A stretch of DNA of 26,270 nt from Armatimonadota bacterium (lineage in GTDB: Bacteria; Armatimonadota; UBA10988; DTZQ01), in the NCBI GenBank assembly GCA_012961305.1, contig DTZQ01000493.1, forward strand, positions 1 through 26,270. The letters run 5' to 3'. The notes beneath the pieces were generated by a model. It made no database searches. It was not told the origin of the DNA and worked only from the letters and a program-made list of their open reading frames with translations. Of the stretch, positions 53-11,476 are shown piece after piece; position 1 is the stretch's first letter, and every line of letters starts with the position of its first letter. A program made the position numbers and the translations under genes.

Positions 53-1120
53 ATGTCTGAAGAAGTCCCTATGTTGCAGTTGCAGGATATTTGCCTGCGC
101 AAAGGTAACTTCTCCCTGGAGCACATTTCCTTCGCCGTGCAGCCGGGGGAGTGTTTCGTCCTTTTAGGGCCCACCGGCACGGGCAAGACCACCGTCTTGG
201 AGACCATCGCCGGGCTCAACCGTCCTCTGCACGGGGAGGTGTGGATTGATGGTCGGGCAGTTACCCATCTCAAGCCAGAACAGCGACAGATTAGTTACGT
301 CCCCCAGGACTATGCCTTGTTCCCCCACCTGCGGGTGATGGACAACCTAACCTTGGCCTGTCGGCTGCGGCGAATGCCCCGCCTGGAGATAGAAGGCCGG
401 CTGAGGGAACTGGTAGAACTGCTGCACTTGGAGCCTTTGTTGTCCCGCTGGCCCCACCACTTGAGCGGGGGGGAGAAACAGCGGGTGGCCCTGGCCCGGG
501 CCCTCATGATTCGGCCGCAGGTCCTACTTTTGGATGAACCCCTTTCGGCCCTGGATGCGGCCGCGCGCCGCTCCGTGCGGGGGGAGTTGAAACGAGTCCT
601 CAACCTGGCCCAGGCGACCACGATTATCGTGACCCACGATTACGTGGACGCTTTCACCTTCGGCGACCACATCGGGGTGATGGATAAGGGTCGCCTCGTC
701 CAAGTGGGCACGCGGGAGGAACTCCTTTTTGCCCCTAAAAGCAAGTTCATCGCTGAGTTCACGGGGGTCAACTTCTTCACTGGCTACATTGACCAAGCCA
801 GTGAGGATGGTTTGAAAATCGCCCGGGTAGGGGAAGTTTGCCTGTACTGTCTCTCGGAGTTGGAGGGGGAAGTGTTCCTTTCCTTCTTCCCCTCCGACGT
901 CACCCTGAGTCGCACTCCCCCCCAAGGTTCCGCCCGCAATGTGCTCAAAGGTGTGGTGCGAGACTTGGTGCACCTGGGCGACCGAGTGCGGGTGGGTCTG
1001 GATTGCGGCCTGCCTTTGGTGGCGGAAGTAACAGCGCAGGCGGTGGAGGAATTGCACCTACGGGAGGGGGATGAGGTGTTCGCCTCCTTCAAGGCCATTA
1101 GTGTCAAGACCTACCGGTGA
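53..1120 (+). CDS. modC: Molybdate/tungstate ABC transporter ATP-binding subunit (ModC/WtpC-like) with C-terminal TOBE domain
   Basis: Walker A GPTGTGKT, signature LSGGEKQRVALARAL, Walker B LLLDEP, H-loop VTHD, and a C-terminal TOBE with SARN. Start moved from 38 to ATG 53, which follows GGAGGA at 40-45. Confidence 0.85.
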   Translation: MSEEVPMLQLQDICLRKGNFSLEHISFAVQPGECFVLLGPTGTGKTTVLETIAGLNRPLHGEVWIDGRAVTHLKPEQRQISYVPQDYALFPHLRVMDNLTLACRLRRMPRLEIEGRLRELVELLHLEPLLSRWPHHLSGGEKQRVALARALMIRPQVLLLDEPLSALDAAARRSVRGELKRVLNLAQATTIIVTHDYVDAFTFGDHIGVMDKGRLVQVGTREELLFAPKSKFIAEFTGVNFFTGYIDQASEDGLKIARVGEVCLYCLSELEGEVFLSFFPSDVTLSRTPPQGSARNVLKGVVRDLVHLGDRVRVGLDCGLPLVAEVTAQAVEELHLREGDEVFASFKAISVKTYR

Positions 1121-1124
1121 GCCT

Positions 1125-1188
1125 ATGGAGTCAGGCCCTTTAGGGCCGTCGAGGCGTTAGTAGACGGGGCTCAGGCCCCCGAGTCCAA
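1125..1188. repeat. Inverted pair of 25-bp REP-like elements (REP doublet)
   Basis: 1125-1149 reads ATGGAGTCAGGCCCTTTAGGGCCGT. 1164-1188 reverse-complements to TTGGACTCGGGGGCCTGAGCCCCGT. A third copy lies at 9818-9842. Confidence 0.7.
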
Positions 1189-1209
1189 AGTTTGGGAGGA
1201 GGTTTCAAC

Positions 1210-1944
1210 ATGGGCGCCATAATCAACGAAGAAAAGGCAGGACAGAACTACTTGCGCATATTCTGCTCCTTGGTTCCGGCCCCGCCGCTGCGGGCTGCTG
1301 GACGGGTCTTCGCAGATAAGTTCGGGGTGGAGGTGGATTTAACTGCTGGCAAGCCGGAGGGATGGGCTCCTCTGGTCATCGGAGGGGAAGCGGGGGATGT
1401 TATCTGCTGCGGAGCGGAGTACCTGTTGGACGAGTTTGAGGATGCAGGGGCGATTATTAAAGAGTCGCGCCGAACGGTTGGTTACCGCCGGTCGGTGCTC
1501 ATCGTGGCCCCGGACAATCCGAAAGGCATCACTTCCTTGGCTGACCTGACGCGGCCAGAGGTGCGGGTGGGCATTGCCGTGGGCGGCTGTCCGAAGGGAA
1601 TTTGGGACGATATTTGCAGTAAGGCGGGCCTGACCGATGCAGTGCGGCGCAATATCGTGGTGCACGCCGATGGGTGTGGGTCACTTATTCGTGCCCTCAC
1701 CCAGGGCGAAATTGACGTGGGCTTTGGCTGGAGTTCCTTCTGCTGCTTCGCTCCCCAGAACGTGGCGGCGGTGGAACTATCCCGCGATTTGCAGGTGTAC
1801 CGCAGCACCTCCGTGGCTATCACTTCCTTCAGTCCCCGCAAGGAACTGGCCCGTCAGTTCATCGAGTTTCTGGTCACGGCTCCAGAAGCGCGGAAGTTCT
1901 ACGACGAGTTCGAAATGAGCCTCACGGTGCCTCCCCCGACTTAG
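1210..1944 (+). CDS. ModA-fold (PBP2) protein without signal peptide, 8 Cys
   Basis: LIVAPDNPKGITSLADLTRPEVRVGI, DVGFGW and ARQFIEFL are ModA-family segments. There is no hydrophobic N-terminus. ATG 1210 follows GGAGGAGG. Confidence 0.75.
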   Translation: MGAIINEEKAGQNYLRIFCSLVPAPPLRAAGRVFADKFGVEVDLTAGKPEGWAPLVIGGEAGDVICCGAEYLLDEFEDAGAIIKESRRTVGYRRSVLIVAPDNPKGITSLADLTRPEVRVGIAVGGCPKGIWDDICSKAGLTDAVRRNIVVHADGCGSLIRALTQGEIDVGFGWSSFCCFAPQNVAAVELSRDLQVYRSTSVAITSFSPRKELARQFIEFLVTAPEARKFYDEFEMSLTVPPPT

Positions 1945-1973
1945 ATTGGACGAGGAAAGGAGGTTGGGAAACC

Positions 1974-2933
1974 ATGATTATTCGGGCACGGGAACTTACC
2001 AAATACTACGGTGACCTCTTAGCGGTGGACCGGGTCTCTTTTGAGGTGCGGGAGGGTGAGGTTTTCGGTTTCTTGGGGCCCAATGGGGCAGGGAAAACGA
2101 CGACCATTCGGATGCTCATCGGCCTTTCGACCCCCAGTGGCGGTACGGCCGAAGTGGGCGGATTCGACGTGGTCAAACAGACAGTTCAGGTTAAGGAACG
2201 GATTGGAGTGGTGCCGGAGATTTCCAACCTGTACGATGAGTTGACCGTGGAGCAGAACCTGGTTTTTGCGGGACGGTTGTGCAAGATGGGGGGAGAAAGG
2301 TTGCAAGCGCGCATTGAGCACCTGCTGGAGTTCTTCCAGTTGCAGGAGAAACGAAAGGCTTTCTTTCGGCAACTTTCGCGGGGCCTGAAGCGCAAGGCGG
2401 TCATCGCCGCCGCCCTGCTGCACCAACCGCCCATCCTGTTCTTGGATGAACCAACCAGCGGATTAGACGTGCTCAGTGCCCGTTCCCTACGCAACCTCAT
2501 TCGAGAATTAAACGCCTTGGGGACAACCATTTTCCTCACCACGCACAACATCGAAGAGGCCGACCAACTTTGCCATCGGGTAGGCATTATCGTGCAGGGT
2601 AAATTGGTCGCCCTGGACACCCCAGAGCGGCTCAAGGCCCGCACCCAGGATAGACAGGCGGTGGAGGTTACCTTCTCCACAGGGGCGGAGGAGTTCTTGG
2701 CAGAACTGAAGGAAATCCCCTTCGCCCGCCAGGTGACTCAGCAGGGAGACAAGGTGCGAATCCTCTGTGCCGACGGTTCGCTGGCAGTGCACGAGTTGGT
2801 GAAATTCGCCGAGGCGCGAGGGGTGCAGATTGAGACCTTGAACACCCTCCGTCCCACTTTGGAGGATGCCTTTGTGGAACTGACTGGCATCAGTTCGGAA
2901 ATTATGCGGATTGACAAGGAAAGGGGCAAATAA
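1974..2933 (+). CDS. ABC-2 type exporter ATP-binding protein (DrrA-like)
   Basis: GPNGAGKTT, LSRGLKRK, LFLDEPTSGLD, LTTHNIEEADQLC and C-terminal PTLEDAFVELTG. SD GGAGG upstream. Confidence 0.9.
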   Translation: MIIRARELTKYYGDLLAVDRVSFEVREGEVFGFLGPNGAGKTTTIRMLIGLSTPSGGTAEVGGFDVVKQTVQVKERIGVVPEISNLYDELTVEQNLVFAGRLCKMGGERLQARIEHLLEFFQLQEKRKAFFRQLSRGLKRKAVIAAALLHQPPILFLDEPTSGLDVLSARSLRNLIRELNALGTTIFLTTHNIEEADQLCHRVGIIVQGKLVALDTPERLKARTQDRQAVEVTFSTGAEEFLAELKEIPFARQVTQQGDKVRILCADGSLAVHELVKFAEARGVQIETLNTLRPTLEDAFVELTGISSEIMRIDKERGK

Positions 2934-2934
2934 A

Positions 2935-3669
2935 ATGTGGGAGCGAGTGAAGATTTTGCTGTTCATTATGCTCAAAGACGCACACGTTTACTATTTCAAA
3001 CCGCCGAATGTAATGTGGGGCATTGGTTTTCCCATCGTCCTCATGTTGGTAGTTTTCTTCCTGCGGGGACAGGGTGACCTGCCGGCGCTGTTTCCGGGCA
3101 TCGTGGCCGTGGCGGTCATTTTCGGCACTTCCAGCATGGCGGCGGAGGTAATCATTTTGGAGCGTTTGGCGGGCACCTTCGACCGGCTGCTGCTGGCTCC
3201 CGTCCCCCTGTGGGCTCTCATTCTGGCTAAAGCCGTGGGAGGAGCCCTCTTTGGGTTGGCGACCACGGCAGCGGTCATCGTCATTACTCTGGGTTTCGTG
3301 CCGACCAGCATCTATTCGCCGCTGTTGTTTATTTTGGTGTTGACGGTGTCGGCGCTCACTTTCAGCCTCTTAGGAACTTTAATCTCGGCTTCGGTAAAGG
3401 CGGCCTGCGACGCTCCCCTGATGAGCAATATGCTGCGCTTTACCATGATTTTCCTCTGTGGCGTATTCGTGCCTGTTTCCCAGATGCCGGAAGTTGTGCG
3501 CCCGCTCGCTTACTTCCTGCCTTTGACCTACGCCGTAGATGGACTGCGCCAAGCCAGTTTGGGTCAGCCGGATGTGGTCAATGCGTACTTAGCGCTGCTG
3601 GTGCTGGGCGGGATAGCCGCCCTGCTTTTTGCCCGCACCCAGCAGGTCCTTCGGCAGAGTTTGCCGTAG
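2935..3669 (+). CDS. ABC-2 type exporter permease
   Basis: About 6 hydrophobic segments, ERLAGTFDRLLLAP, and FLCGVFVPVSQMP...LPLTYAVDGLR. ATG 2935 lies 1 nt after the stop of the ATPase gene. Confidence 0.88.
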   Translation: MWERVKILLFIMLKDAHVYYFKPPNVMWGIGFPIVLMLVVFFLRGQGDLPALFPGIVAVAVIFGTSSMAAEVIILERLAGTFDRLLLAPVPLWALILAKAVGGALFGLATTAAVIVITLGFVPTSIYSPLLFILVLTVSALTFSLLGTLISASVKAACDAPLMSNMLRFTMIFLCGVFVPVSQMPEVVRPLAYFLPLTYAVDGLRQASLGQPDVVNAYLALLVLGGIAALLFARTQQVLRQSLP

Positions 3670-3701
3670 CCGCTCTGTCAACGGCTAAAGGGAGCACCGA
3701 G

Positions 3702-4535
3702 GTGAGCCCCAAAGTCTGGTGGATAATTGGCGGGACGTTGGTCATCCTGTTGCTCATCTGGCAGGGGGTCCGGGTGGAAAGGGAAATTCATGCTACTGGC
3801 GCTGCGCCCAAACCGTTGTTAGAGAAAGGGGAGCGAAAAATTCAGGTTTTCGCTGGTGCGGCGAGCAAACCGGCCTTGGAGGAAGTGGCCCAGTTGTACG
3901 AGCAGCAGTATGGGACGAAAGTTGAGTGTACTTTCGGTGGTTCGGGGACCATGCTCTCCCAGATGCTTTTGGCTCAGCGGGGTGATGTGTACGTTCCCGG
4001 CTCGGATGACTTCATGGACAAAGCGGAGCAGAAGGGGGTGGTGGAGAAAGGTCGGCGGGAAATTGTGGCCTATCTCCTGCCGGTCATCGCCGTGCAGAAA
4101 GGCAATCCCCAGAACATCCAATCTTTGGAGGATTTGGCTCGGCCGGGGCTCCGAGTGGGCATTGCTCGCCCGGAAGCGGTCTGCTTAGGGGACATTGCGT
4201 TGGAGATTTTCGAGCAGGCCGGGTTGCGGGAGAAAATTGAACCCAACATCGTCACTCAGGCTACCAGTTGCTCCCACACCGCAGCCCTGGTCAAAATGAG
4301 GCAGGTGGACGCAGTTATCGGTTGGGATGTCTTTGCTGCCTGGTATCCGGAAGACATTGAGATGGTGCCGTTGCCCTCAGAACTGCGGCACTGGCGCTAC
4401 ATCCCCGCTGCGGTCACGAAGTTCGCCAGGGAGGAAAGGGAGGCGCAGCGGTTCGTGGATTTTCTCTGTTCCCAAACCGGAAAGGGAATTTTCCAAAGGC
4501 ACGGTTACACAGTTGTTGCTCCGGGGAGGGAGTAA
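3702..4535 (+). CDS. modA: Molybdate/tungstate ABC transporter substrate-binding protein
   Basis: N-terminal hydrophobic anchor; canonical FAGAAS and FGGSG oxyanion segments; AVQKGNPQNIQSLEDL. Extra Cys in EAVCLG and TSCSH. GTG start. Confidence 0.8.
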   Translation: MSPKVWWIIGGTLVILLLIWQGVRVEREIHATGAAPKPLLEKGERKIQVFAGAASKPALEEVAQLYEQQYGTKVECTFGGSGTMLSQMLLAQRGDVYVPGSDDFMDKAEQKGVVEKGRREIVAYLLPVIAVQKGNPQNIQSLEDLARPGLRVGIARPEAVCLGDIALEIFEQAGLREKIEPNIVTQATSCSHTAALVKMRQVDAVIGWDVFAAWYPEDIEMVPLPSELRHWRYIPAAVTKFAREEREAQRFVDFLCSQTGKGIFQRHGYTVVAPGRE

Positions 4536-4567
4536 AAGGCCGTAGGCTTTACCTTAGGAGGATGGGA

Positions 4568-5806
4568 ATGGGCGAGACTCTGATTAAAGCGGTAGACGTT
4601 TTCAAGTGCTGCATTTTAACCTGGGATTTCTTCCCGGTGGTCCTGCCGGCCTTTCTGATTGCAGGAGCGATACCGGTCTTTGTCCCGGCGGTGCACATTC
4701 TGCGCTATTTGGGCTATGGGGCTCGGAAAGTAGTAGCCTACACTGCGGCTTCCTTTTCCGGGTTCATCATCGCCATGTGTTCCTGCAACATCGTGCCCTT
4801 AGCGGCAAGCATTTACCGGCGGGGGGCTGGTATCGGACCGGCCTTTGCCTTTCTGTACGCCGGGCCGGCCATTAACTTCATTACCATGGTCTGGGTTTTT
4901 CAGGTAGTAGGGTGGCGCATGGGCCTGTGGCGGGCGGCTGCGGTGCCGATTATTGCTGTGCTCATTGGCCTGCTCATGCAGTTGATTTTCCGCCGGGAGG
5001 ACACCACCCGCCGGGTGCATTTTCAGGCCGTAGTCCAGCGCGAAATTTACACCGGAGAGGCTGTCCACCCCCAGAAGTTGGGCCTGCTTTTCGGGTTGCT
5101 CATTGGCATTTTAATTTTCGGGGCCAAGGGCCTGCCCTGGTGGCTGCGCTTCACCACGCTGGTAGTTTTCGGCGGGGGGCTAGTGCTGGTGGTCCGCCGG
5201 TGGTTCACACGGGAGGAGTTGCGGGATTGGCTGGAGGAGACCCTTCACTTCCTCAAATTGGTCCTGCCCATTCTGGTGTCGGCCATTCTGGCCATCGGCC
5301 TTGCCTTCCGCTACATCCCCATTAAATGGATGCATGACCACATTTATCCTTTGGTCGGCGACAATTCGCCCCGGGCCACTTTCATTGCTGCGGCGTTCGG
5401 CTCGGTGATGTATTTCCCCATCCTCACGGAGGTCGCCTTTACCAAGGCCCTGTTGAAGTACGAAATGTTGGGAGTAGGCCCGGCCCTGGCCATTCTGCTC
5501 AACGGCCCGGGGGTAAGCCTGCCGGGAGCCTTGCTGCTCCTGCGCATTTTCGGCTGGAAGAAGACGTTAGTTTACGAAGGACTGGAGATGTTCCTGGGCG
5601 GCTTAACGGCCATGTGGTTCGGACGATTATATGGCGAATATGTCTGCCCTTGCCAGACGGGGGAAGGGGCCAATCCGGTGGAGACCCTCATTGCCGTCAT
5701 AGTCATGATGGTGGTTATCGTCTTGGCGGCTTTCATCGTCTTTCGCTTTTCCTTGCCTCCCGCAGAGAAGGAGCCACCCTTAGCCCCGGAGGAAGCAAAG
5801 GCATGA
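4568..5806 (+). CDS. DUF318/ArsP-type permease
   Basis: MCSCNIVPLA, GAGIGPAFAFLYAGPAIN, a second half with MYFPILTEV and GPALAILLNGPGVSLP, and many TM segments. ATG 4568 has better spacing from AGGAGG than ATG 4562. Confidence 0.8.
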   Translation: MGETLIKAVDVFKCCILTWDFFPVVLPAFLIAGAIPVFVPAVHILRYLGYGARKVVAYTAASFSGFIIAMCSCNIVPLAASIYRRGAGIGPAFAFLYAGPAINFITMVWVFQVVGWRMGLWRAAAVPIIAVLIGLLMQLIFRREDTTRRVHFQAVVQREIYTGEAVHPQKLGLLFGLLIGILIFGAKGLPWWLRFTTLVVFGGGLVLVVRRWFTREELRDWLEETLHFLKLVLPILVSAILAIGLAFRYIPIKWMHDHIYPLVGDNSPRATFIAAAFGSVMYFPILTEVAFTKALLKYEMLGVGPALAILLNGPGVSLPGALLLLRIFGWKKTLVYEGLEMFLGGLTAMWFGRLYGEYVCPCQTGEGANPVETLIAVIVMMVVIVLAAFIVFRFSLPPAEKEPPLAPEEAKA

Positions 5807-6645
5807 AACGCATCGGCTGGCTTTTGAGTCTGGGACTGGTGGGGATTCTGGGGGGCTGTTCGCGCCCGGGGGGAGGTTCCTCTTCCCCACTCCCTCAGGG
5901 AACGACCCCCCCTCGGCAGGTGGAGGTCTTTGTGCCCTGTGGCATGATCATTCCCTTCAACAAGGTCAAAAGGCTGTTCCGGGAGCAGACGGGCCTGGAG
6001 GTGGACATTTTCTTCGAGAATGCGGTAAACCTGCTGAAGCGCATTCGCAAAGGGGCTCGTCCCGATGTGCTGGTCACGCCCGGGGAACTGGAGATGAAGC
6101 AGATGGAAGAGGAGGGTTACCTTGCTCCGGCAAGTGTGCGCACTTTTGGCACCTACCAACTCGTCCTCATCGTGCCCGGCCGCAACAAGGCTGGCATTAC
6201 TGCCCTTTCGGACCTAACCAAACCCTCGGTCAAACAAATTGCCATTGCCGACCCGGAGCAAAATTCGGTGGGCTACTATGCCCGCGAGGCCCTGAAAAAC
6301 CTGGGACTGTGGGAGGGGGTGCAGGATAAACTGGTGACCCATTGGCATGCCTTGCAGGCGGCGAAGTACGTGGTCAGCAGCCTGGTGGACGCGGGCCTTT
6401 ACTATGCTTCCTGTCCCTTTGACAGTGCGCCGGAGAAATTGGGCAACCGGCCCGGGCCCTACCGGGTCATTGAAGAGGTTCCGCCGGAGGCCTATCCGAA
6501 GGTTAAAGTGCAGGCGGGCCTCCTGCGGGAGGCTCCTCATCCGGCCGCGGGTTGGCAGTTTCTGGAGTTCCTGCTCTCTCCCCAAGCCCAGCACACCCTG
6601 GCCCAATGGGGCCTGCCCAATTACTCAAAGGAGGAAAACCCATGA
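5803..6645 (+). CDS. ModA-like lipoprotein with VPCG/YASC cysteine pair
   Basis: Lipoprotein signal MKRIGWLLSLGLVGILGG-C; ModA segments RPDVLV, IAIADPEQNSVGYYAREAL, FLEFLLSPQAQ. ATGA overlap with the permease stop. Confidence 0.8.
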   Translation: MKRIGWLLSLGLVGILGGCSRPGGGSSSPLPQGTTPPRQVEVFVPCGMIIPFNKVKRLFREQTGLEVDIFFENAVNLLKRIRKGARPDVLVTPGELEMKQMEEEGYLAPASVRTFGTYQLVLIVPGRNKAGITALSDLTKPSVKQIAIADPEQNSVGYYAREALKNLGLWEGVQDKLVTHWHALQAAKYVVSSLVDAGLYYASCPFDSAPEKLGNRPGPYRVIEEVPPEAYPKVKVQAGLLREAPHPAAGWQFLEFLLSPQAQHTLAQWGLPNYSKEENP

Positions 6646-7973: not shown

Positions 7974-8216
7974 ATGCGCCTGCTCGTGTTCACCGATGAA
8001 AGCGAGGAGAGCCAGCGGCAAAAGCAAATCGCCTGGGGCGTGGCCCGTCGCTTTCCCCAGGTGGAAGTGGTGGAACTGCCCTTAACTGGCGAGGAGGCCC
8101 AACGCCGGGGCATTCCCCGTGCACCAGCAGTAGTGGCAGAGGGGTTCATCCTCTCGGTAGGAAAATTGTTGTCCGCGGGTCAACTGCGAAGGTTCCTGGA
8201 GCGAAAGGTAGCCTGA
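7974..8216 (+). CDS. Small thioredoxin-fold protein lacking CxxC
   Basis: Aligns by eye with the next gene (EEAQRRGIPRAPAVV vs EEADQYGVVMTPTVM) and contains no Cys. It abuts the previous stop (TGA-ATG), and its own stop overlaps the next ATG. Confidence 0.65.
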   Translation: MRLLVFTDESEESQRQKQIAWGVARRFPQVEVVELPLTGEEAQRRGIPRAPAVVAEGFILSVGKLLSAGQLRRFLERKVA

Positions 8217-8485
8217 TGGTCACCATTACCATCATCAAGGCCCCTACGCCCTGCCCGCAATGTCATTTGGCGGAACAGGTGGCCCAACAAGTGGCCGAAA
8301 ATTACCCCGGTGAGGTCGCGGTGAAGGTTCTCAGTGTACTGGACGAGGAGGCCGACCAGTACGGGGTGGTAATGACCCCGACGGTGATGGTGGACGATGT
8401 AATCGTCAGCGTGCGAAAAGCCCCCCGGCGGGAGCGTCTTGCAGCCTTGATTGCTCGGAAATTGGGATGTTTGCCGAATACTTGA
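8216..8485 (+). CDS. Small thioredoxin-family protein (Thioredoxin_3-like), CPQC
   Basis: PCPQC active site, YGVVMTPTVMVD cis-Pro segment, TGATG coupling. Confidence 0.85.
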   Translation: MVTITIIKAPTPCPQCHLAEQVAQQVAENYPGEVAVKVLSVLDEEADQYGVVMTPTVMVDDVIVSVRKAPRRERLAALIARKLGCLPNT

Positions 8486-8510
8486 CAAAAAAAGATGATA
8501 GGAGTATAAT
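8482..8510 (+). promoter_or_regulatory. sigma70-type promoter, perfect consensus
   Basis: TTGACA 8482-8487, 17-nt spacer, TATAAT 8505-8510, upstream of the MerR-family gene. Confidence 0.85.
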
Positions 8511-8577
8511 AAATAAAAGTGCCCCCAATGCTAAGGGCCAAATTGCCCGGGAGGCCCGTTTGTGGCGAAGGTTCATC

Positions 8578-9255
8578 ATGCGACCGGCGAAGAAACAAGA
8601 AGGTGTTTATACCATTGGAGTGGCGACCAAGTTGCTGGGGGTTCATCACCGCACGCTACGCATTTACGAGGAGGAAGGGCTCATTCTCCCCCAGCGGGAC
8701 CCTAAGAACAATCGGCGGCTTTATTCCGACCAGGACTTGGTCTGGATTCGCTGCATTCGCCAACTCATTCACCAGGGCGGTCTCACCGTCAAGGCCATCC
8801 GCCGCTTATTGGATTTAGTGCCCTGCTGGGAGATTAAACACTGCCCGGAGGAACAGTGGCGTCGGTGCTTGCCCAACTTGAACATTCCCCATATGAAATT
8901 GCCTCCCCAGGTGGCTCCCCCGGAACTGCTCTTGGAGGGAAAAAAGGCCCGAGCCGAGAAAACGGTGGAAATCAAACTTTTCTATGGGGTGCGGGAATTT
9001 GGGGCAATTTTGCCCTGTTCCAAGTGCATTAAAGCCGAGCGCGTTCTTCGCAAAGTGGCCCAGAGGTTTGGGGACCGAATTACCATCGTGAAGTACGAGG
9101 CTTCCTCGCCGGAAGCAGACCGCTATGAGGTGCTTCTCACCCCTACCATTTTCCTGGACGAGGAGCCGTTGGTGATAGGCGGGGTTCCTTCGGAGCCGGC
9201 GTTAGAGAGGGCGATTGAAAAGTCCTTGGCAAGTAGAAGGGAAAGTGGGGAATAA
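8578..9255 (+). CDS. MerR-family regulator with Cys-rich CW motif and C-terminal thioredoxin domain
   Basis: YTIGVATKLLGVHHRTLRIYEEEGL...RRLYS HTH, then PCWEIKHC...C, then PCSKC and TPT in a Trx domain. The start is set at ATG 8578 because the promoter lies inside the longer ORF-track call. Confidence 0.85.
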   Translation: MRPAKKQEGVYTIGVATKLLGVHHRTLRIYEEEGLILPQRDPKNNRRLYSDQDLVWIRCIRQLIHQGGLTVKAIRRLLDLVPCWEIKHCPEEQWRRCLPNLNIPHMKLPPQVAPPELLLEGKKARAEKTVEIKLFYGVREFGAILPCSKCIKAERVLRKVAQRFGDRITIVKYEASSPEADRYEVLLTPTIFLDEEPLVIGGVPSEPALERAIEKSLASRRESGE

Positions 9256-9275
9256 AAAATGATTTTGGGATATTA

Positions 9276-9310
9276 TTTACAATAATTTTTGTAAGTTGAT
9301 TTCACAATAA
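9276..9310. promoter_or_regulatory. Candidate operator: three ACAA/TTGT half-sites in an AT-rich intergenic region
   Basis: Dyad TTACAA-N6-TTGTAA at 9277-9294, and direct repeat TT(T/C)ACAATAA at 9276 and 9301, upstream of SD AAGGAG and ATG 9328. Confidence 0.5.
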
Positions 9311-9327
9311 AAAAGGAGTATATCAAC

Positions 9328-9753
9328 ATGGCTCAATCAGAGTTCAAGGTAGCCCTGGTCGCCTGCGACGGCATTGGGCGGTTGGTTTCCACCGTGGTGC
9401 GGCAGGCGGCCTACAAGGTCATGCAGCAGCGACCGGAAGAAGTGATTTTAGTGGACACCGGGATGCTCCTGGCCGACCAACCGGAGGCTTTGGAGGTCAT
9501 CAACAAATACCCAGTGGTGGTCATTGACGGCTGTCGCCCGCGCTGTGGGACCGTGATGACCGAAGGCCATGGCGTCAAACCGGCGGTTACGGTGTACACC
9601 CGGGATGTGGTGGCCCAGGAGAAAATCTCCTTGGTGGGCGAGCAACGGCGAGGTCTGGGCGAAAAGGGTATGCGCCTGGCCGAAGCCGTCGCCCAGCGAG
9701 TAATTGAAGCCGTTGACCTGCTCATCGCCGAAGAGATGGTGAGCACGCTTTAG
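9328..9753 (+). CDS. DGC-domain putative zinc-binding protein
   Basis: ACDG...VVIDGCRPRC pattern of the DGC family; SD AAGGAG. Confidence 0.75.
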   Translation: MAQSEFKVALVACDGIGRLVSTVVRQAAYKVMQQRPEEVILVDTGMLLADQPEALEVINKYPVVVIDGCRPRCGTVMTEGHGVKPAVTVYTRDVVAQEKISLVGEQRRGLGEKGMRLAEAVAQRVIEAVDLLIAEEMVSTL

Positions 9754-9757
9754 GGAG

Positions 9758-9977
9758 TTGAGATTTCAAACCTGGTAACCATTCAGCCGGCTGTTTCTAA
9801 AGGGACAAGGGGACCCTTTGGAGTCAGGGGCTTCAGCCCCGTTAGGACGGCGCTTGTCCAAAAGGACTGAGGACTGAGTCGTGAGTACTGAGTTCCTCCG
9901 CCCTCGGTCCTCAGCACTGGTGAAGGAGGGGGTGAGGGGGTGAAGGCTGAGCGGTTACCAAACTGAAATTTGAGATT
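9758..9977. repeat. Nested intergenic repeat composite, MITE-like
   Basis: Imperfect ~26-bp inverted arms at 9763-9788 and 9945-9969, and flanking direct repeat TTGAGATT at 9758-9765 and 9970-9977. Inside are a REP copy, a GGACAAG/CTTGTCC stem, heptamer repeats and GGTGA(A)GG repeats. Confidence 0.55.
9818..9842 (+). repeat. REP-like element, third copy
   Basis: TTGGAGTCAGGGGCTTCAGCCCCGT with hairpin GGGGCT-TC-AGCCCC; matches the copies at 1125-1188. Confidence 0.7.
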
Positions 9978-9994
9978 GCTTGGAGGTAACCATC

Positions 9995-10456
9995 ATGCCA
10001 GAGAAAGTAACTTTACAGCCTTGTTTGGGCCTGACGCCGGTGGAAACGACCGTCGGACGACAGGCTTGTTACTTGGTGGCCGAGGAACTGCGGGCGGGGA
10101 AGGCCAATTTGGGCTGCGGGCCGGCCCTGAACGCCCGGGTGCAGGAAGACCTCGATTTCATCGAGTATTACCCCATTATCGCGGTAGAGGGTTGTGACCG
10201 CTGCTGTGCCAGTCGGCTGGTGCGCAAGTTCGGACAGGAACCAGAGGTAGCGGTCATCGTGCCGGAGGTGTTGCGCGAGGCCGGGATTTCCTTGGCGGCG
10301 GAAAAGGGGTTAGTCGCAGAGGTGGACCCCTACCAAGTACGCTGTGGAGCAGGAAAACCTGACCCTACCCCGCATTTGGAGTTAGACCATCCCGCCGTGC
10401 AGGCCGTGGCCCAACGGTGCGTGGCCGAGTTGGACCGCCTGCTGTCCGCCCCATAG
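9995..10456 (+). CDS. DGC-like putative zinc-binding protein, 8 Cys
   Basis: PCLG...GCGP...IIAVEGCDRCC; paralogous to 9328-9753 (TTVGRQAC vs STVVRQAA, YPIIAVEGC vs YPVVVIDGC). ATG 9995 follows GGAGG. Confidence 0.7.
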   Translation: MPEKVTLQPCLGLTPVETTVGRQACYLVAEELRAGKANLGCGPALNARVQEDLDFIEYYPIIAVEGCDRCCASRLVRKFGQEPEVAVIVPEVLREAGISLAAEKGLVAEVDPYQVRCGAGKPDPTPHLELDHPAVQAVAQRCVAELDRLLSAP

Positions 10457-10511
10457 CCAGCAGTCACGAATGCGAGGCGCGAGTAACCAGAGACTCGCCG
10501 CTCACAATTGG

Positions 10512-10556
10512 AAATCTGCTGCCCCCAGGGACCTTCGGGGAGGCGGGATTTTTTCT
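10512..10556 (+). terminator. Possible intrinsic terminator or attenuator
   Basis: Imperfect GC-rich stem (CTGCCCCC / GGGGAGGCGG) followed by ATTTTTTCTATTT, lying between the second DGC gene and the aquaporin gene. Confidence 0.4.
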
Positions 10557-10603
10557 ATTTCCCCCGGAAGAGGACAGAATTTGGAGGACGGGAGGAAACC
10601 CTG

Positions 10604-11476
10604 ATGAATGAGCGAAGGAAACTCTACGGCGAATGTCTGGCCGAGTTCATTGGCACCTTTATCCTGGTGTTCTTCGGCGTCGGCTCAGTTCACACGGCGG
10701 TCTCCACGCAGGCGCAAGCCGGACTGTGGCAGGTAGCGGTAGTGTGGGGAGTGGCTATCGCCTTGGCCATCTACGCGACAGGGGCGGTAAGCGGCTGTCA
10801 CATCAACCCGGCCATTACCCTGGCTTTCGCGGCCTGGCAGGGGTTCCCCTGGCGGAAAGTGCTGCCCTACATTGCTGCTCAGGTCGCCGGAGCCTTTGCC
10901 GCTGCTGCTGTACTCTATGGACTATTCCACGGTGCCATTGCCCATTTTGAGGCCCAGCACAGCATCGTGCGCGGCCAGCCGGGCAGCCAACTGTCGGCCA
11001 TGATGTACGGCGAATATTTCCCCAATCCGGCCATCTTAGGCACCGATGCCGCCGCTTGGGCCCAAGTTTCCCACTTGCAAGCCTTTTGCGCGGAACTCGT
11101 CGGCACGGCTTTTTTGGCCTTTTTCGTCTTTGCCCTGGTGGACCCCCAAAACTGGGGAGCGCCACGGGGAAATATGTTCGCTTTGTTCATCGGCTTGACG
11201 GTGTCCATCGTCATCTCCATCATTGCTCCCCTCACCCAAGCGGCCCTGAACCCTGCCCGGGACTTCGGTCCGCGACTATGGGCCCTGCTGGCCGGTTGGG
11301 GACCTATTGCCATTCCCGGCCCCCGTGGCGGGTTCTTTACCGTGTACATTCTGGCCCCCCTCTGGGGAGGCCTGTTGGGTGGATTAGTCTATGAACGGTT
11401 AATTGTACCGTTCCGAAAGGTTTCCAAGACCGGAGAACAGGAGGTTGCTTTAGATGAGGGAAAGGGTCGAGGTTAA
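10604..11476 (+). CDS. glpF: MIP-family aquaglyceroporin (GlpF-type)
   Basis: Two NPA boxes, SGCHINPA and ALNPARDFGPR (NPARD is the glyceroporin signature); AEFIGT and AELVGT. ATG 10604 follows GGAGG. Confidence 0.85.
   Translation: MNERRKLYGECLAEFIGTFILVFFGVGSVHTAVSTQAQAGLWQVAVVWGVAIALAIYATGAVSGCHINPAITLAFAAWQGFPWRKVLPYIAAQVAGAFAAAAVLYGLFHGAIAHFEAQHSIVRGQPGSQLSAMMYGEYFPNPAILGTDAAAWAQVSHLQAFCAELVGTAFLAFFVFALVDPQNWGAPRGNMFALFIGLTVSIVISIIAPLTQAALNPARDFGPRLWALLAGWGPIAIPGPRGGFFTVYILAPLWGGLLGGLVYERLIVPFRKVSKTGEQEVALDEGKGRG

What the first reader, a model, noticed from the sequence alone, without database searches (positions are those of the whole stretch)
8578..9255. MerR HTH + CW cysteine motif + thioredoxin fusion regulator
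Seen: an HspR-like HTH, then RCIR and PCWEIKHCPEEQWRRC, then a full Trx domain with PCSKC (6 Cys in total). Established: MerR-family specificity is set by the C-terminal sensor domain. Inference: a dual-input regulator (metal or Fe-S site plus redox-active dithiol) that controls this locus in place of ArsR or ModE.
Basis: partly seen in the sequence, partly recalled or inferred. Interest (0 to 1): 0.6.

Follow-up and report, generated by a model that had tools for sequence, protein, structure and literature searches.

The report
Thioredoxin-fused MerR regulator with cysteine motif
This gene encodes an unstudied DNA-binding regulator whose usual dimerising helix is replaced by a cysteine cluster and a complete thioredoxin domain. 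It sits beside, and probably controls through an 18-bp palindrome, a small operon for two cysteine-rich proteins and a glycerol/arsenite-type channel.

Summary
ORF 8578-9255 (+) encodes 225 aa: a MerR_1 winged HTH (11-79), a cysteine motif (C59, then PCWEIKHC-x7-C) and a Thioredoxin_3 domain with CxxC and cis-Pro.

It is not a one-off. At least 224 database clusters share the architecture, almost all from Armatimonadota MAGs. Five cysteines are invariant and the sixth is kept in at least 90% of 81 sequences.

The regulator lies next to a DGC-DGC-aquaglyceroporin (MIP) operon in 20 of 22 non-redundant genome loci, divergent or co-directional. An 18-bp dyad (consensus TGGCAGTAATTACTGCCA) accompanies it in 19 of those 22. 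The dyad was found in 7 of 7 loci not used to define it and occurs only once per genome in five genomes tested.

In the window the only candidate operator is a diverged dyad, TTACAATAATTTTTGTAA (9277-9294), upstream of DGC1. The regulator gene has its own perfect sigma-70 promoter.

It is not the heat-shock HspR. A canonical dnaJ-hspR pair lies elsewhere in the genome and the window has no HAIR site.

The cysteine motif belongs to a large family of short HspR-like MerR proteins with a CW-type Cys-rich tail. Here the second half of that tail is replaced by thioredoxin.

The ligand (metalloid, metal or Fe-S, or redox) is inferred, not shown. No paper on this family was found. The scan had already noted this locus.

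The parts
8482..8510 (+). Sigma-70-type promoter TTGACA-17-TATAAT of the regulator gene. It carries no dyad.
   Evidence: 12/12 consensus match. It lies in a 40% GC island, about 68 nt upstream of the ATG at 8578.
8567..8571 (+). Likely ribosome-binding site GAAGG, 6 nt before the ATG.
   Evidence: Read from the sequence.
8578..9255 (+). MerR-CW-thioredoxin regulator gene (225 aa, P0001).
8608..8814 (+). Winged HTH (residues 11-79), HspR/GlnR-like. The recognition helix reads GVHHRTLRIYE, against GLSA/GLSP in relatives. C59 is at 8752-8754.
   Evidence: Pfam MerR_1; PDB GlnR 4r4e E 5e-7; Foldseek TM 0.81-0.84; HTH table.
8821..8889 (+). CW cysteine motif (residues 82-104): P-C83-W-E-x3-C89-x7-C97, then LNIP. 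It occupies the place of the MerR coiled-coil.
   Evidence: Invariant or nearly invariant columns. The triad is also at least 90% conserved in stand-alone MerR-CW proteins. pLDDT is 51-62.
8890..8961 (+). Variable, disordered linker (residues 105-128).
   Evidence: pLDDT below 50 for residues 112-126; length varies in the alignment.
8962..9246 (+). Thioredoxin_3 domain (residues 129-223). C147-x2-C150 is at 9016-9027, and the cis-Pro is P189.
   Evidence: Pfam PF13192; NCBIfam MJ0307 and MTH895/ArsE thioredoxin families, below cutoff; thioredoxin fold.
9277..9294 (.). Candidate operator: the 18-bp dyad TTACAATAA|TTTTTGTAA, 34 nt before the DGC1 ATG, at the same relative position (+699) as the consensus dyads of co-directional relatives.
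   Evidence: 8/9 pairs complementary; unique in the 4.4-Mb genome; family PWM score 10.7 bits. The PWM score is reached in 64 of 20000 shuffles of the AT-rich spacer, and score plus palindrome together in 1 of 20000. Positions in relatives are +686 to +740.
9328..9753 (+). DGC-domain protein 1, the first gene of the conserved partner operon.
   Evidence: PF08859 E 1.5e-12; adjacent to the regulator in 20 of 22 loci.
9980..10456 (+). DGC-domain protein 2.
   Evidence: PF08859 E 1.1e-9; synteny.
10508..11476 (+). MIP-family channel (aquaglyceroporin type), the third conserved partner gene. The start codon is uncertain (10508 or 10604).
   Evidence: PF00230 E 3.9e-50; 53-73% identical orthologues next to the regulator.

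Best explanation
The gene encodes a dedicated local transcription factor.

Shown:
- It has an HspR/GlnR-type MerR winged HTH, a conserved four-cysteine 'CW' segment where MerR proteins normally have their dimerising coiled-coil, and a thioredoxin domain that keeps every catalytic hallmark.
- It belongs to a conserved family that is encoded beside a DGC-DGC-aquaglyceroporin operon.
- It is accompanied by one genome-unique 18-bp dyad.

Inferred:
- The protein binds that dyad as a dimer, as GlnR/TnrA bind TGTNA-N7-TNACA. In the window the site would be TTACAATAATTTTTGTAA, just upstream of DGC1.
- In most relatives the dyad overlaps a conserved TTGACA. In co-directional loci it overlaps an AATAAT -10-like core. 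The likeliest mode is therefore repression by promoter occlusion.
- Repression would be relieved when the thiols change state. The C83/C89/C97 (+C59) cluster would bind a thiophilic ligand. This would be either a trivalent metalloid such as As(III) or Sb(III), or a metal or Fe-S centre that such compounds or oxidants displace.
- The tethered thioredoxin CxxC would either capture the same ligand as a vicinal dithiol or reduce and reset the sensor cysteines.
- The controlled genes would move or handle a thiol-reactive small solute: a MIP channel, Zn/Cys DGC proteins and, in this genome and in G381, an ArsP-type permease with Cys-pair ModA-like binding proteins.
For: - Architecture and cysteine invariance.
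- Fold.
- Family size and taxonomy: 224 hits with E up to 1e-3, of which all 120 listed carry MerR+Trx3. 19 genome loci are nearly all Armatimonadota. 21 of 401 genomes of the phylum sample have it, 13 of 15 in one family.
- Synteny with DGC-DGC-MIP: 13 divergent and 7 co-directional among 22 non-redundant loci, plus 4 of the 4 metagenome loci that have upstream flank.
- Dyad specificity within loci: a PWM built from 20 sites gave no hit of 12 bits or more anywhere else in about 250 kb of loci.
- Dyad in independent data: 7 of 7 metagenome loci have exactly one hit of 21-26 bits at -66 to -84.
- Dyad genome-wide: a degenerate pattern occurs once per genome in G132, G227, G271 and G166, each time beside the regulator, with reversed-pattern controls at 0. 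In G381 it occurs once in 5.4 Mb, inside the regulator's own cluster.
- Window dyad.
- The window's altered recognition helix (HH for SA/SP) coincides with symmetric arm changes, GG/CC to TA/TA.
- Arsenic link: an ArsR5-ArsP-ArsE(PF13192)-DGC(PF08859) operon of P. mercurii ND132 is induced by arsenic (bioRxiv 10.1101/2022.10.17.512643). MIP channels as As(III) conduits is established knowledge.
- ArsP plus a Cys-ModA-like protein lie next to the regulator in G381.
Against: - No binding, ligand or expression data exist.
- The Cys motif is modelled with low confidence, and its triad is shared by hundreds of short MerR proteins from many contexts, including response-regulator fusions. It may therefore be a generic structural Zn or Fe-S site rather than a metalloid sensor.
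- The window's own dyad is weak against the family PWM (10.7 bits against 17-27). It lies in a 26% GC spacer where AT palindromes arise easily: 8/9 palindromes appear in 4.6% of shuffles.
- No recognisable -10 box at conserved spacing was found, so repression versus MerR-type activation is unresolved.
- No arsC, acr3 or arsM genes are conserved neighbours.
- The helix/operator co-variation rests on a single lineage.
Confidence: 0.55

Rival explanations
1. It is a general thiol/disulfide or Fe-S redox-stress sensor, SoxR- or NmlR-like in logic. The CW cysteines would hold an Fe-S cluster or Zn, the thioredoxin domain would relay the cellular disulfide status, and the signal would be oxidants or electrophiles rather than a metalloid.
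For: Four conserved Cys fit a tetrahedral metal or cluster site. The same triad occurs in many stand-alone MerR-CW proteins of unrelated contexts. The Trx domain keeps CxxC and cis-Pro. MIP channels can also pass H2O2 (general knowledge).
Against: There is one operator per genome, placed beside DGC-DGC-MIP. That argues for a dedicated pathway regulator, not a stress regulon. DGC plus Thioredoxin_3 plus ArsP genes are arsenic-induced in ND132. The C-x5-C-x7-C spacing is not a known Fe-S motif (own knowledge).
Confidence: 0.22
2. The thioredoxin domain is a working pathway enzyme, an ArsE-like reductase serving the DGC proteins or the channel cargo, that became fused to the local regulator. It would not be a signal input. 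Sensing would be done by the CW motif alone, or by protein-protein contact with DGC proteins.
For: In the main clade no separate Thioredoxin_3 gene is seen near the operon; the fused domain is the only one found. ND132 pairs a free ArsE with a DGC protein. A long disordered linker separates the domains.
Against: The fusion and its CxxC are invariant over the whole family. No close stand-alone homologue of the domain was found. The window also carries free Trx-like genes at 7974-8485, yet keeps the fused one.
Confidence: 0.15
3. It is a heat-shock repressor of the HspR type that binds HAIR sites at chaperone genes.
For: The best NCBIfam match of the HTH is HspR, at 61.5 bits. All 40 MerR-CW relatives also hit HspR best.
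Against: The score is below the family cutoff of 105. The genome has a canonical 115-aa HspR with a coiled-coil right after dnaJ. There is no HAIR match in the window: the best has 3 mismatches, lies inside a gene, and equals chance. The conserved neighbours are DGC-DGC-MIP, not chaperones. The associated dyad is TGGCA-N8-TGCCA.
Confidence: 0.03

Closest known systems
GlnR/TnrA (Bacillus; PDB 4r4e, 7tea, 4r22) and HspR: short MerR-family regulators
   Same: The winged HTH is the closest in sequence and fold (E 5e-7; TM 0.81-0.84). They also lack the long coiled-coil, are regulated through a C-terminal segment, and bind dyads with 5-bp arms (TGTNA-N7-TNACA against TGGCA-N8-TGCCA here).
   Different: They have no cysteine motif and no thioredoxin domain. 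Their signals (feedback-inhibited glutamine synthetase, or DnaK) and their regulons (nitrogen, heat shock) are unrelated. The operator sequence also differs.
Metal- and redox-sensing MerR regulators (MerR, CueR, ZntR, SoxR, NmlR)
   Same: A MerR HTH is followed by cysteine ligands that sense a thiophilic metal or redox change. The dyad lies in or next to the promoter, and the gene arrangement is often divergent.
   Different: The dimerisation helix that carries their metal site is absent. The cysteine spacing (C-x23-C-x5-C-x7-C) matches none of them. All NCBIfam scores are far below cutoffs. No 19-20 bp spacer promoter could be recognised.
ArsR-controlled ArsP-ArsE-DGC operon of Pseudodesulfovibrio mercurii ND132 (bioRxiv 10.1101/2022.10.17.512643)
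   Same: It has the same building blocks: a PF03773 permease, a PF13192 thioredoxin-like protein and a PF08859 DGC protein under one local regulator. It is induced by arsenic.
   Different: The regulator there is ArsR/SmtB-type and the thioredoxin is a separate protein. Here the thioredoxin is fused to a MerR-type regulator, and an aquaglyceroporin is the constant partner.
Two-CW domain (NCBIfam NF045718) and stand-alone MerR-CW proteins
   Same: The P-C-W-E-x3-C-x7-C segment aligns with the first half of the Cys-rich tail of 100-170 aa HspR-like MerR proteins. Some of those weakly match the two-CW model (best E 0.003).
   Different: The window protein itself gives no match to NF045718. It lacks the second CW and the C-x2-C, which are replaced by the thioredoxin domain. 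The two-CW domain itself has no known function (no paper found).

Membership tests
MerR family (Pfam PF13411 MerR_1) | N-terminal winged helix-turn-helix above the Pfam gathering score | tested here: met
   68.7 bits against a cutoff of 21.6, residues 11-79; GlnR-like fold.
MerR family (classical metal sensors) | Long antiparallel coiled-coil dimerisation helix after the HTH, carrying the effector site | tested here: not met
   The model shows only short helices at 83-87 and 91-100, then a disordered linker. PDB matches stop at about residue 80.
HspR (NCBIfam NF047375) | Score above the curated cutoff (105 bits) | tested here: not met
   61.5 bits.
HspR (NCBIfam NF047375) | Linked to the dnaK/dnaJ operon and HAIR operators (CTTGAGT-N7-ACTCAAG) | tested here: not met
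   A separate dnaJ-hspR pair lies on contig C344. The window has no HAIR site. The neighbours are DGC-DGC-MIP.
Thioredoxin_3 (PF13192) / MTH895-ArsE and MJ0307 thioredoxins | Thioredoxin fold with CxxC and cis-Pro; Pfam gathering score | tested here: met
   33.2 bits against a cutoff of 24.8. C147/C150 and P189 are invariant. Foldseek matches thioredoxins at TM 0.6-0.76.
Thioredoxin_3 (PF13192) / MTH895-ArsE and MJ0307 thioredoxins | NCBIfam equivalog or subfamily cutoffs (TIGR00411 92.75 bits; TIGR00412 62 bits) | tested here: not met
   27.2 and 26.0 bits. This is domain-level similarity only.
Thioredoxin_3 (PF13192) / MTH895-ArsE and MJ0307 thioredoxins | Disulfide reductase activity | not testable with these tools
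   Needs an insulin or DTNB reduction assay.
Two-CW domain (NF045718) | Match above the cutoff (35 bits) with both CW motifs and the terminal CxxC | tested here: not met
   No hit for the window protein at E up to 0.1. Only the first CW is present. Relatives reach at most 17.8 bits.
MerR-CW-Trx family (defined here) | MerR_1 + C59/C83/C89/C97 + Thioredoxin_3 CxxC, about 220-230 aa | tested here: met
   The window protein aligns end to end at 45-60% identity with 80 members.
MerR-CW-Trx family (defined here) | Adjacent DGC-DGC-MIP operon | tested here: met
   Genes at 9328-11476 follow the regulator directly.
MerR-CW-Trx family (defined here) | Consensus dyad TGRCA-N8-TGCCA next to the gene | tested here: inconclusive
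   The window has no consensus site. It has only the symmetric variant TTACAATAATTTTTGTAA at the expected position.

The most novel reading that the evidence does not exclude
This would be the first MerR-type regulator whose dimerisation and effector helix has been replaced by a CW cysteine cluster plus a covalently tethered, catalytically competent thioredoxin. That would make a self-resetting thiol sensor for trivalent metalloids or organoarsenicals, controlling a previously undescribed DGC-DGC-aquaglyceroporin handling system through a single genome-unique operator. By extension, the widespread stand-alone MerR-CW proteins would form a new class of cysteine-based sensors.
Probability: 0.3. 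Interest if true: 0.7.

Novelty: new variant of a known kind. Interest (0 to 1): 0.55.

Why it matters
MerR regulators are a textbook case of sensing through a C-terminal effector domain. Here that domain is a combination not described in any paper I could find: a CW-type cysteine cluster fused to thioredoxin.

The work gives a directly testable regulon: one operator, one operon. It also gives a handle on three protein families that have no established function. These are the DGC domain, the two-CW-like cysteine motif, and the thiol-rich ModA/ArsP system of Armatimonadota.

If the ligand proves to be a metalloid, the protein and its 18-bp site would be a compact new biosensor part.

If the CW motif proves to be a generic metal or Fe-S module, the result would explain hundreds of short 'HspR-like' proteins that are currently annotated only as MerR family.

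Tried and rejected
A metagenome scan with the window protein found only relatives at about 50% identity. The helix/operator co-variation could therefore not be tested in a sister lineage.
- The consensus dyad is absent from the window.
- The two best PWM hits in the window's genome (C157, C269) lie inside coding regions and were dismissed.
- AT-rich hits at C130, C152, C378 and C668 were examined. None is a convincing dyad.
- I tried to place -35 and -10 boxes around the dyad on both strands in 12 divergent loci. No -10 at constant spacing emerged, so activator and repressor geometry cannot be told apart.
- The protein atlas search on the Cys segment gave nothing.
- A search for stand-alone relatives of the Trx domain gave nothing.
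- Literature searches for the DGC domain, MerR plus thioredoxin, two-CW and the Pfam accessions gave only the ND132 preprint.
- A sigma-54 promoter reading of TGGCA-N8-TGCCA was rejected because the GG-to-GC spacing is 13, not 11 (own reading).
- The 262-aa start at 8467 was rejected (see the observation check).

Full report
**1. What is in the sequence**

The + strand frame from 8578 to 9255 is open and encodes 225 residues. A longer reading from ATG 8467 is possible. That reading overlaps the preceding gene by 19 nt and would contain a perfect TTGACA-17-TATAAT promoter at 8482-8510. Homologues begin about ten residues before the HTH, and GAAGG lies 6 nt before the ATG at 8578. I therefore take 8578 as the start.

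Pfam finds MerR_1 at residues 11-79 (E 4.8e-19) and Thioredoxin_3 at 146-212 (E 5.4e-8). The best NCBIfam hit for the N-terminus is HspR, at 61.5 bits against a cutoff of 105. The C-terminus resembles the MJ0307 and MTH895/ArsE thioredoxins, also below their cutoffs.

The AlphaFold model built on 81 sequences has two confident domains.
- The first superposes on GlnR-DNA complexes: 4r4e and 7tea, TM 0.81-0.84, rmsd 1.4-1.6 Å.
- The second superposes on thioredoxins.
- Residues 81-110, the Cys motif, have pLDDT 51-62.
- Residues 112-126 are disordered.
- No long coiled-coil follows the HTH, unlike classical MerR proteins.

**2. It is a conserved family**

A search of 5.8 billion proteins gave 224 hits. 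All 120 listed carry MerR+Thioredoxin_3, are 215-262 aa long, and are 44-60% identical to the window protein, apart from the window's own 262-aa database entry. Sources name them only 'MerR family' or 'HspR'.

In alignments of 30 and 81 sequences, C59, C83, C89, C147 and C150 are invariant. C97 is kept in at least 90%, and the thioredoxin cis-Pro P189 is invariant. The segment LLDLIPCWEIKHCPE...C..LNIP is the best conserved part of the whole protein.

Genome records place the family almost wholly in Armatimonadota, including 'Hebobacteria' MAGs. In a sample of 401 genomes of the phylum, 21 have it. One family accounts for 13 of its 15 genomes sampled, and none of the six other genomes of the window's own order has it. 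The window's genome has a single copy.

**3. Conserved neighbours**

I mapped the window's proteins onto 22 non-redundant genome loci.
- The regulator lies directly beside two DGC-domain genes and a MIP channel gene in 20 loci.
- In 13 of these it is divergently transcribed.
- In 7 it is co-directional, as in the window.
- The two exceptions are a contig that begins at the gene (L003) and G381 (see section 5).
- All four metagenome loci with upstream flank show the same divergent operon.

An all-against-all clustering of flanking ORFs found no other gene family in more than 9 of 14 long loci. The ModA/ModC/ABC-2 genes upstream in the window are not general partners.

**4. A candidate operator**

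Upstream regions of the divergent loci share cTTGACAGGAATTCCTGCCAGG. Co-directional loci carry the same kind of site upstream of the regulator, between the regulator and DGC1, or both. The core is an 18-bp dyad, TGRCA-N8-TGCCA, with an AATT centre.

Evidence that the dyad is specific:
- A symmetric weight matrix built from 20 sites gave no other hit of 12 bits or more anywhere in about 250 kb of loci. It also found three sites that had not been used to build it.
- Seven metagenome loci fetched afterwards each have exactly one hit, at 21-26 bits, 66-84 nt before the start codon.
- A degenerate pattern occurs once in each of the four genomes that matched it. Each time it is beside the regulator, and reversed-pattern controls give zero.
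- In G381 the pattern occurs once in 5.4 Mb, 1.8 kb from the regulator in the same cluster.

This is what a dedicated local regulator with one operator would look like. Binding itself has not been shown.

**5. The window's own version**

The window has no consensus dyad. The 26% GC spacer between the regulator and DGC1 does contain TTACAATAA|TTTTTGTAA at 9277-9294.
- It is complementary at 8 of 9 pairs.
- It is unique in the 4.4-Mb genome.
- It lies at +699 from the start codon, against +686 to +740 for the consensus sites of co-directional relatives.
- It keeps the invariant T1, C4, A5, AATT core, T14, G15 and A18. It differs symmetrically in both arms: GG to TA, and CC to TA.
- It scores 10.7 bits.
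- Shuffles of the AT-rich spacer reach that score in 0.3% of trials. Score and palindrome together are reached in 1 of 20000 trials.

The window protein is also the outlier in its recognition helix: GVHHRTLRIYE, where relatives have GLSA or GLSP. This is suggestive co-variation from a single lineage. It is not proof.

The regulator gene itself sits behind a perfect sigma-70 promoter without a dyad. Unlike most relatives, it may therefore not be autoregulated.

In G381 the regulator follows an ArsP_1 permease and faces a Cys-pair ModA-like lipoprotein. A methyltransferase, two DUF1559 pilin-like genes and a thioredoxin follow. No DGC homologue was found in that genome, which is 89% complete. 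The link to ArsP and Cys-ModA proteins seen in the window therefore recurs once, independently.

**6. Origin of the cysteine motif**

An exhaustive HMMER search with residues 1-110 gave 261 hits below 1e-10. After the few Trx-fused clusters, the best hits are 100-170 aa proteins that align through residue 97-105.

In a 40-sequence alignment, P82, C83, W84, C89 and C97 are at least 90% conserved and C59 is present in about two thirds. Most members continue with a second P-C-W and a C-x2-C. Some carry an N-terminal receiver domain.

The tail resembles NCBIfam's two-CW domain only weakly. The best E is 0.003, below the cutoff, and fewer than five of the 40 members match. The window protein does not match at all.

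The thioredoxin fusion is thus a branch of a large uncharacterised group of HspR-like MerR proteins. In this branch the second half of the Cys-rich tail has been exchanged for a thioredoxin with its own CxxC.

**7. What it is not**

It is not the heat-shock repressor. Contig C344 carries dnaJ followed by a 115-aa cysteine-free HspR with a C-terminal coiled-coil. The window has no HAIR site better than chance.

**8. Mechanism**

Shown: the domains, the invariant cysteines, the synteny, and the unique dyad.

Inferred: dimeric binding to the dyad, by analogy with GlnR/TnrA, which share the fold and the kind of dyad (TGTNA-N7-TNACA is from my own knowledge).

The dyad overlaps a conserved TTGACA in divergent loci and an AATAAT-like core in co-directional ones. 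I therefore favour repression by occlusion. I could not place a -10 box at constant spacing, so MerR-type activation is not excluded.

The signal is most likely thiol-based. The best contextual clues point to a trivalent metalloid.
- The partner channel is an aquaglyceroporin-type MIP.
- PF13192 (ArsE), PF08859 (DGC) and PF03773 (ArsP) genes form an arsenic-induced ArsR operon in P. mercurii ND132.

However, the CW triad is too widespread to be an arsenic site everywhere. A Zn or Fe-S centre that responds to oxidants or thiophiles is a serious rival.

The thioredoxin may serve as a second input, as a reset reductase, or as a pathway enzyme fused for convenience.

**9. Verdict**

The feature is a new variant of the MerR theme, conserved but unstudied. 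Its operator and regulon are concrete and testable.

Earlier notes of this scan on the same locus (Cys-pair ModA proteins; a lipoyl protein behind the MIP) fit this picture. I rechecked independently only the taxonomy and the ArsP/ModA association.

Noticed in passing
G000 contig C344 (L023:165-1474): A canonical dnaJ followed by a 115-aa cysteine-free HspR with a C-terminal coiled-coil. This is the genome's real heat-shock repressor.
   Followed up: partly
L001:9900-9940 and the equivalent in 11 other divergent loci: A second conserved block, ATGAAATTTGTGTGAAG, lies about 5 nt upstream of the dyad on the DGC side. It could be the back-to-back DGC promoter (TTCACA on the other strand) or a site for another factor.
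   Followed up: partly
L001:6602-7336 (-) and homologues in 9 of 14 long loci: A conserved 244-aa Cys-rich protein with no Pfam match lies two genes beyond the MIP. Its VLAVDASSAC segment resembles the DGC motif.
   Followed up: no
L017:3500-4280, L042, L053:912-1718 and L053:2610-3251: DUF1559 / prepilin-type (N_methyl) genes sit directly downstream of the dyad in three lineages: between the operator and DGC1, or before a thioredoxin. They may be further regulon members.
   Followed up: partly
L053 (G381:C222) 305-6593: A cluster ArsP_1 permease - MerR-CW-Trx - DUF1559 - SAM methyltransferase - dyad - DUF1559 - thioredoxin, with a divergent VPC-type ModA-like lipoprotein. No DGC homologue was found in this genome.
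   Followed up: partly
P0122 (1015 aa): A protein made of about 12-14 tandem MerR/excisionase-type HTH repeats (Pfam MerR_1 matched in 14 stretches).
   Followed up: no
P0159, P0198, P0207, P0224, P0230: Receiver domain + MerR HTH + full two-CW-like tail fusions (about 340-360 aa). These would be response regulators whose output domain is the MerR-CW module.
   Followed up: no
G000 contig C378:14894-14911: TGACATAAATAATTTACA (11.4 bits, not a true palindrome) lies 20 nt upstream of a radical-SAM (NifB-like) gene, which is followed by another Tat-signal ModA-like protein with a WACGG motif.
   Followed up: no
window 9256-9327 and 8486-8530: Two sharp AT-rich islands (26% and 40% GC, in a sequence of about 58% GC) flank the regulator gene. 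They hold, respectively, the dyad and the perfect promoter.
   Followed up: yes
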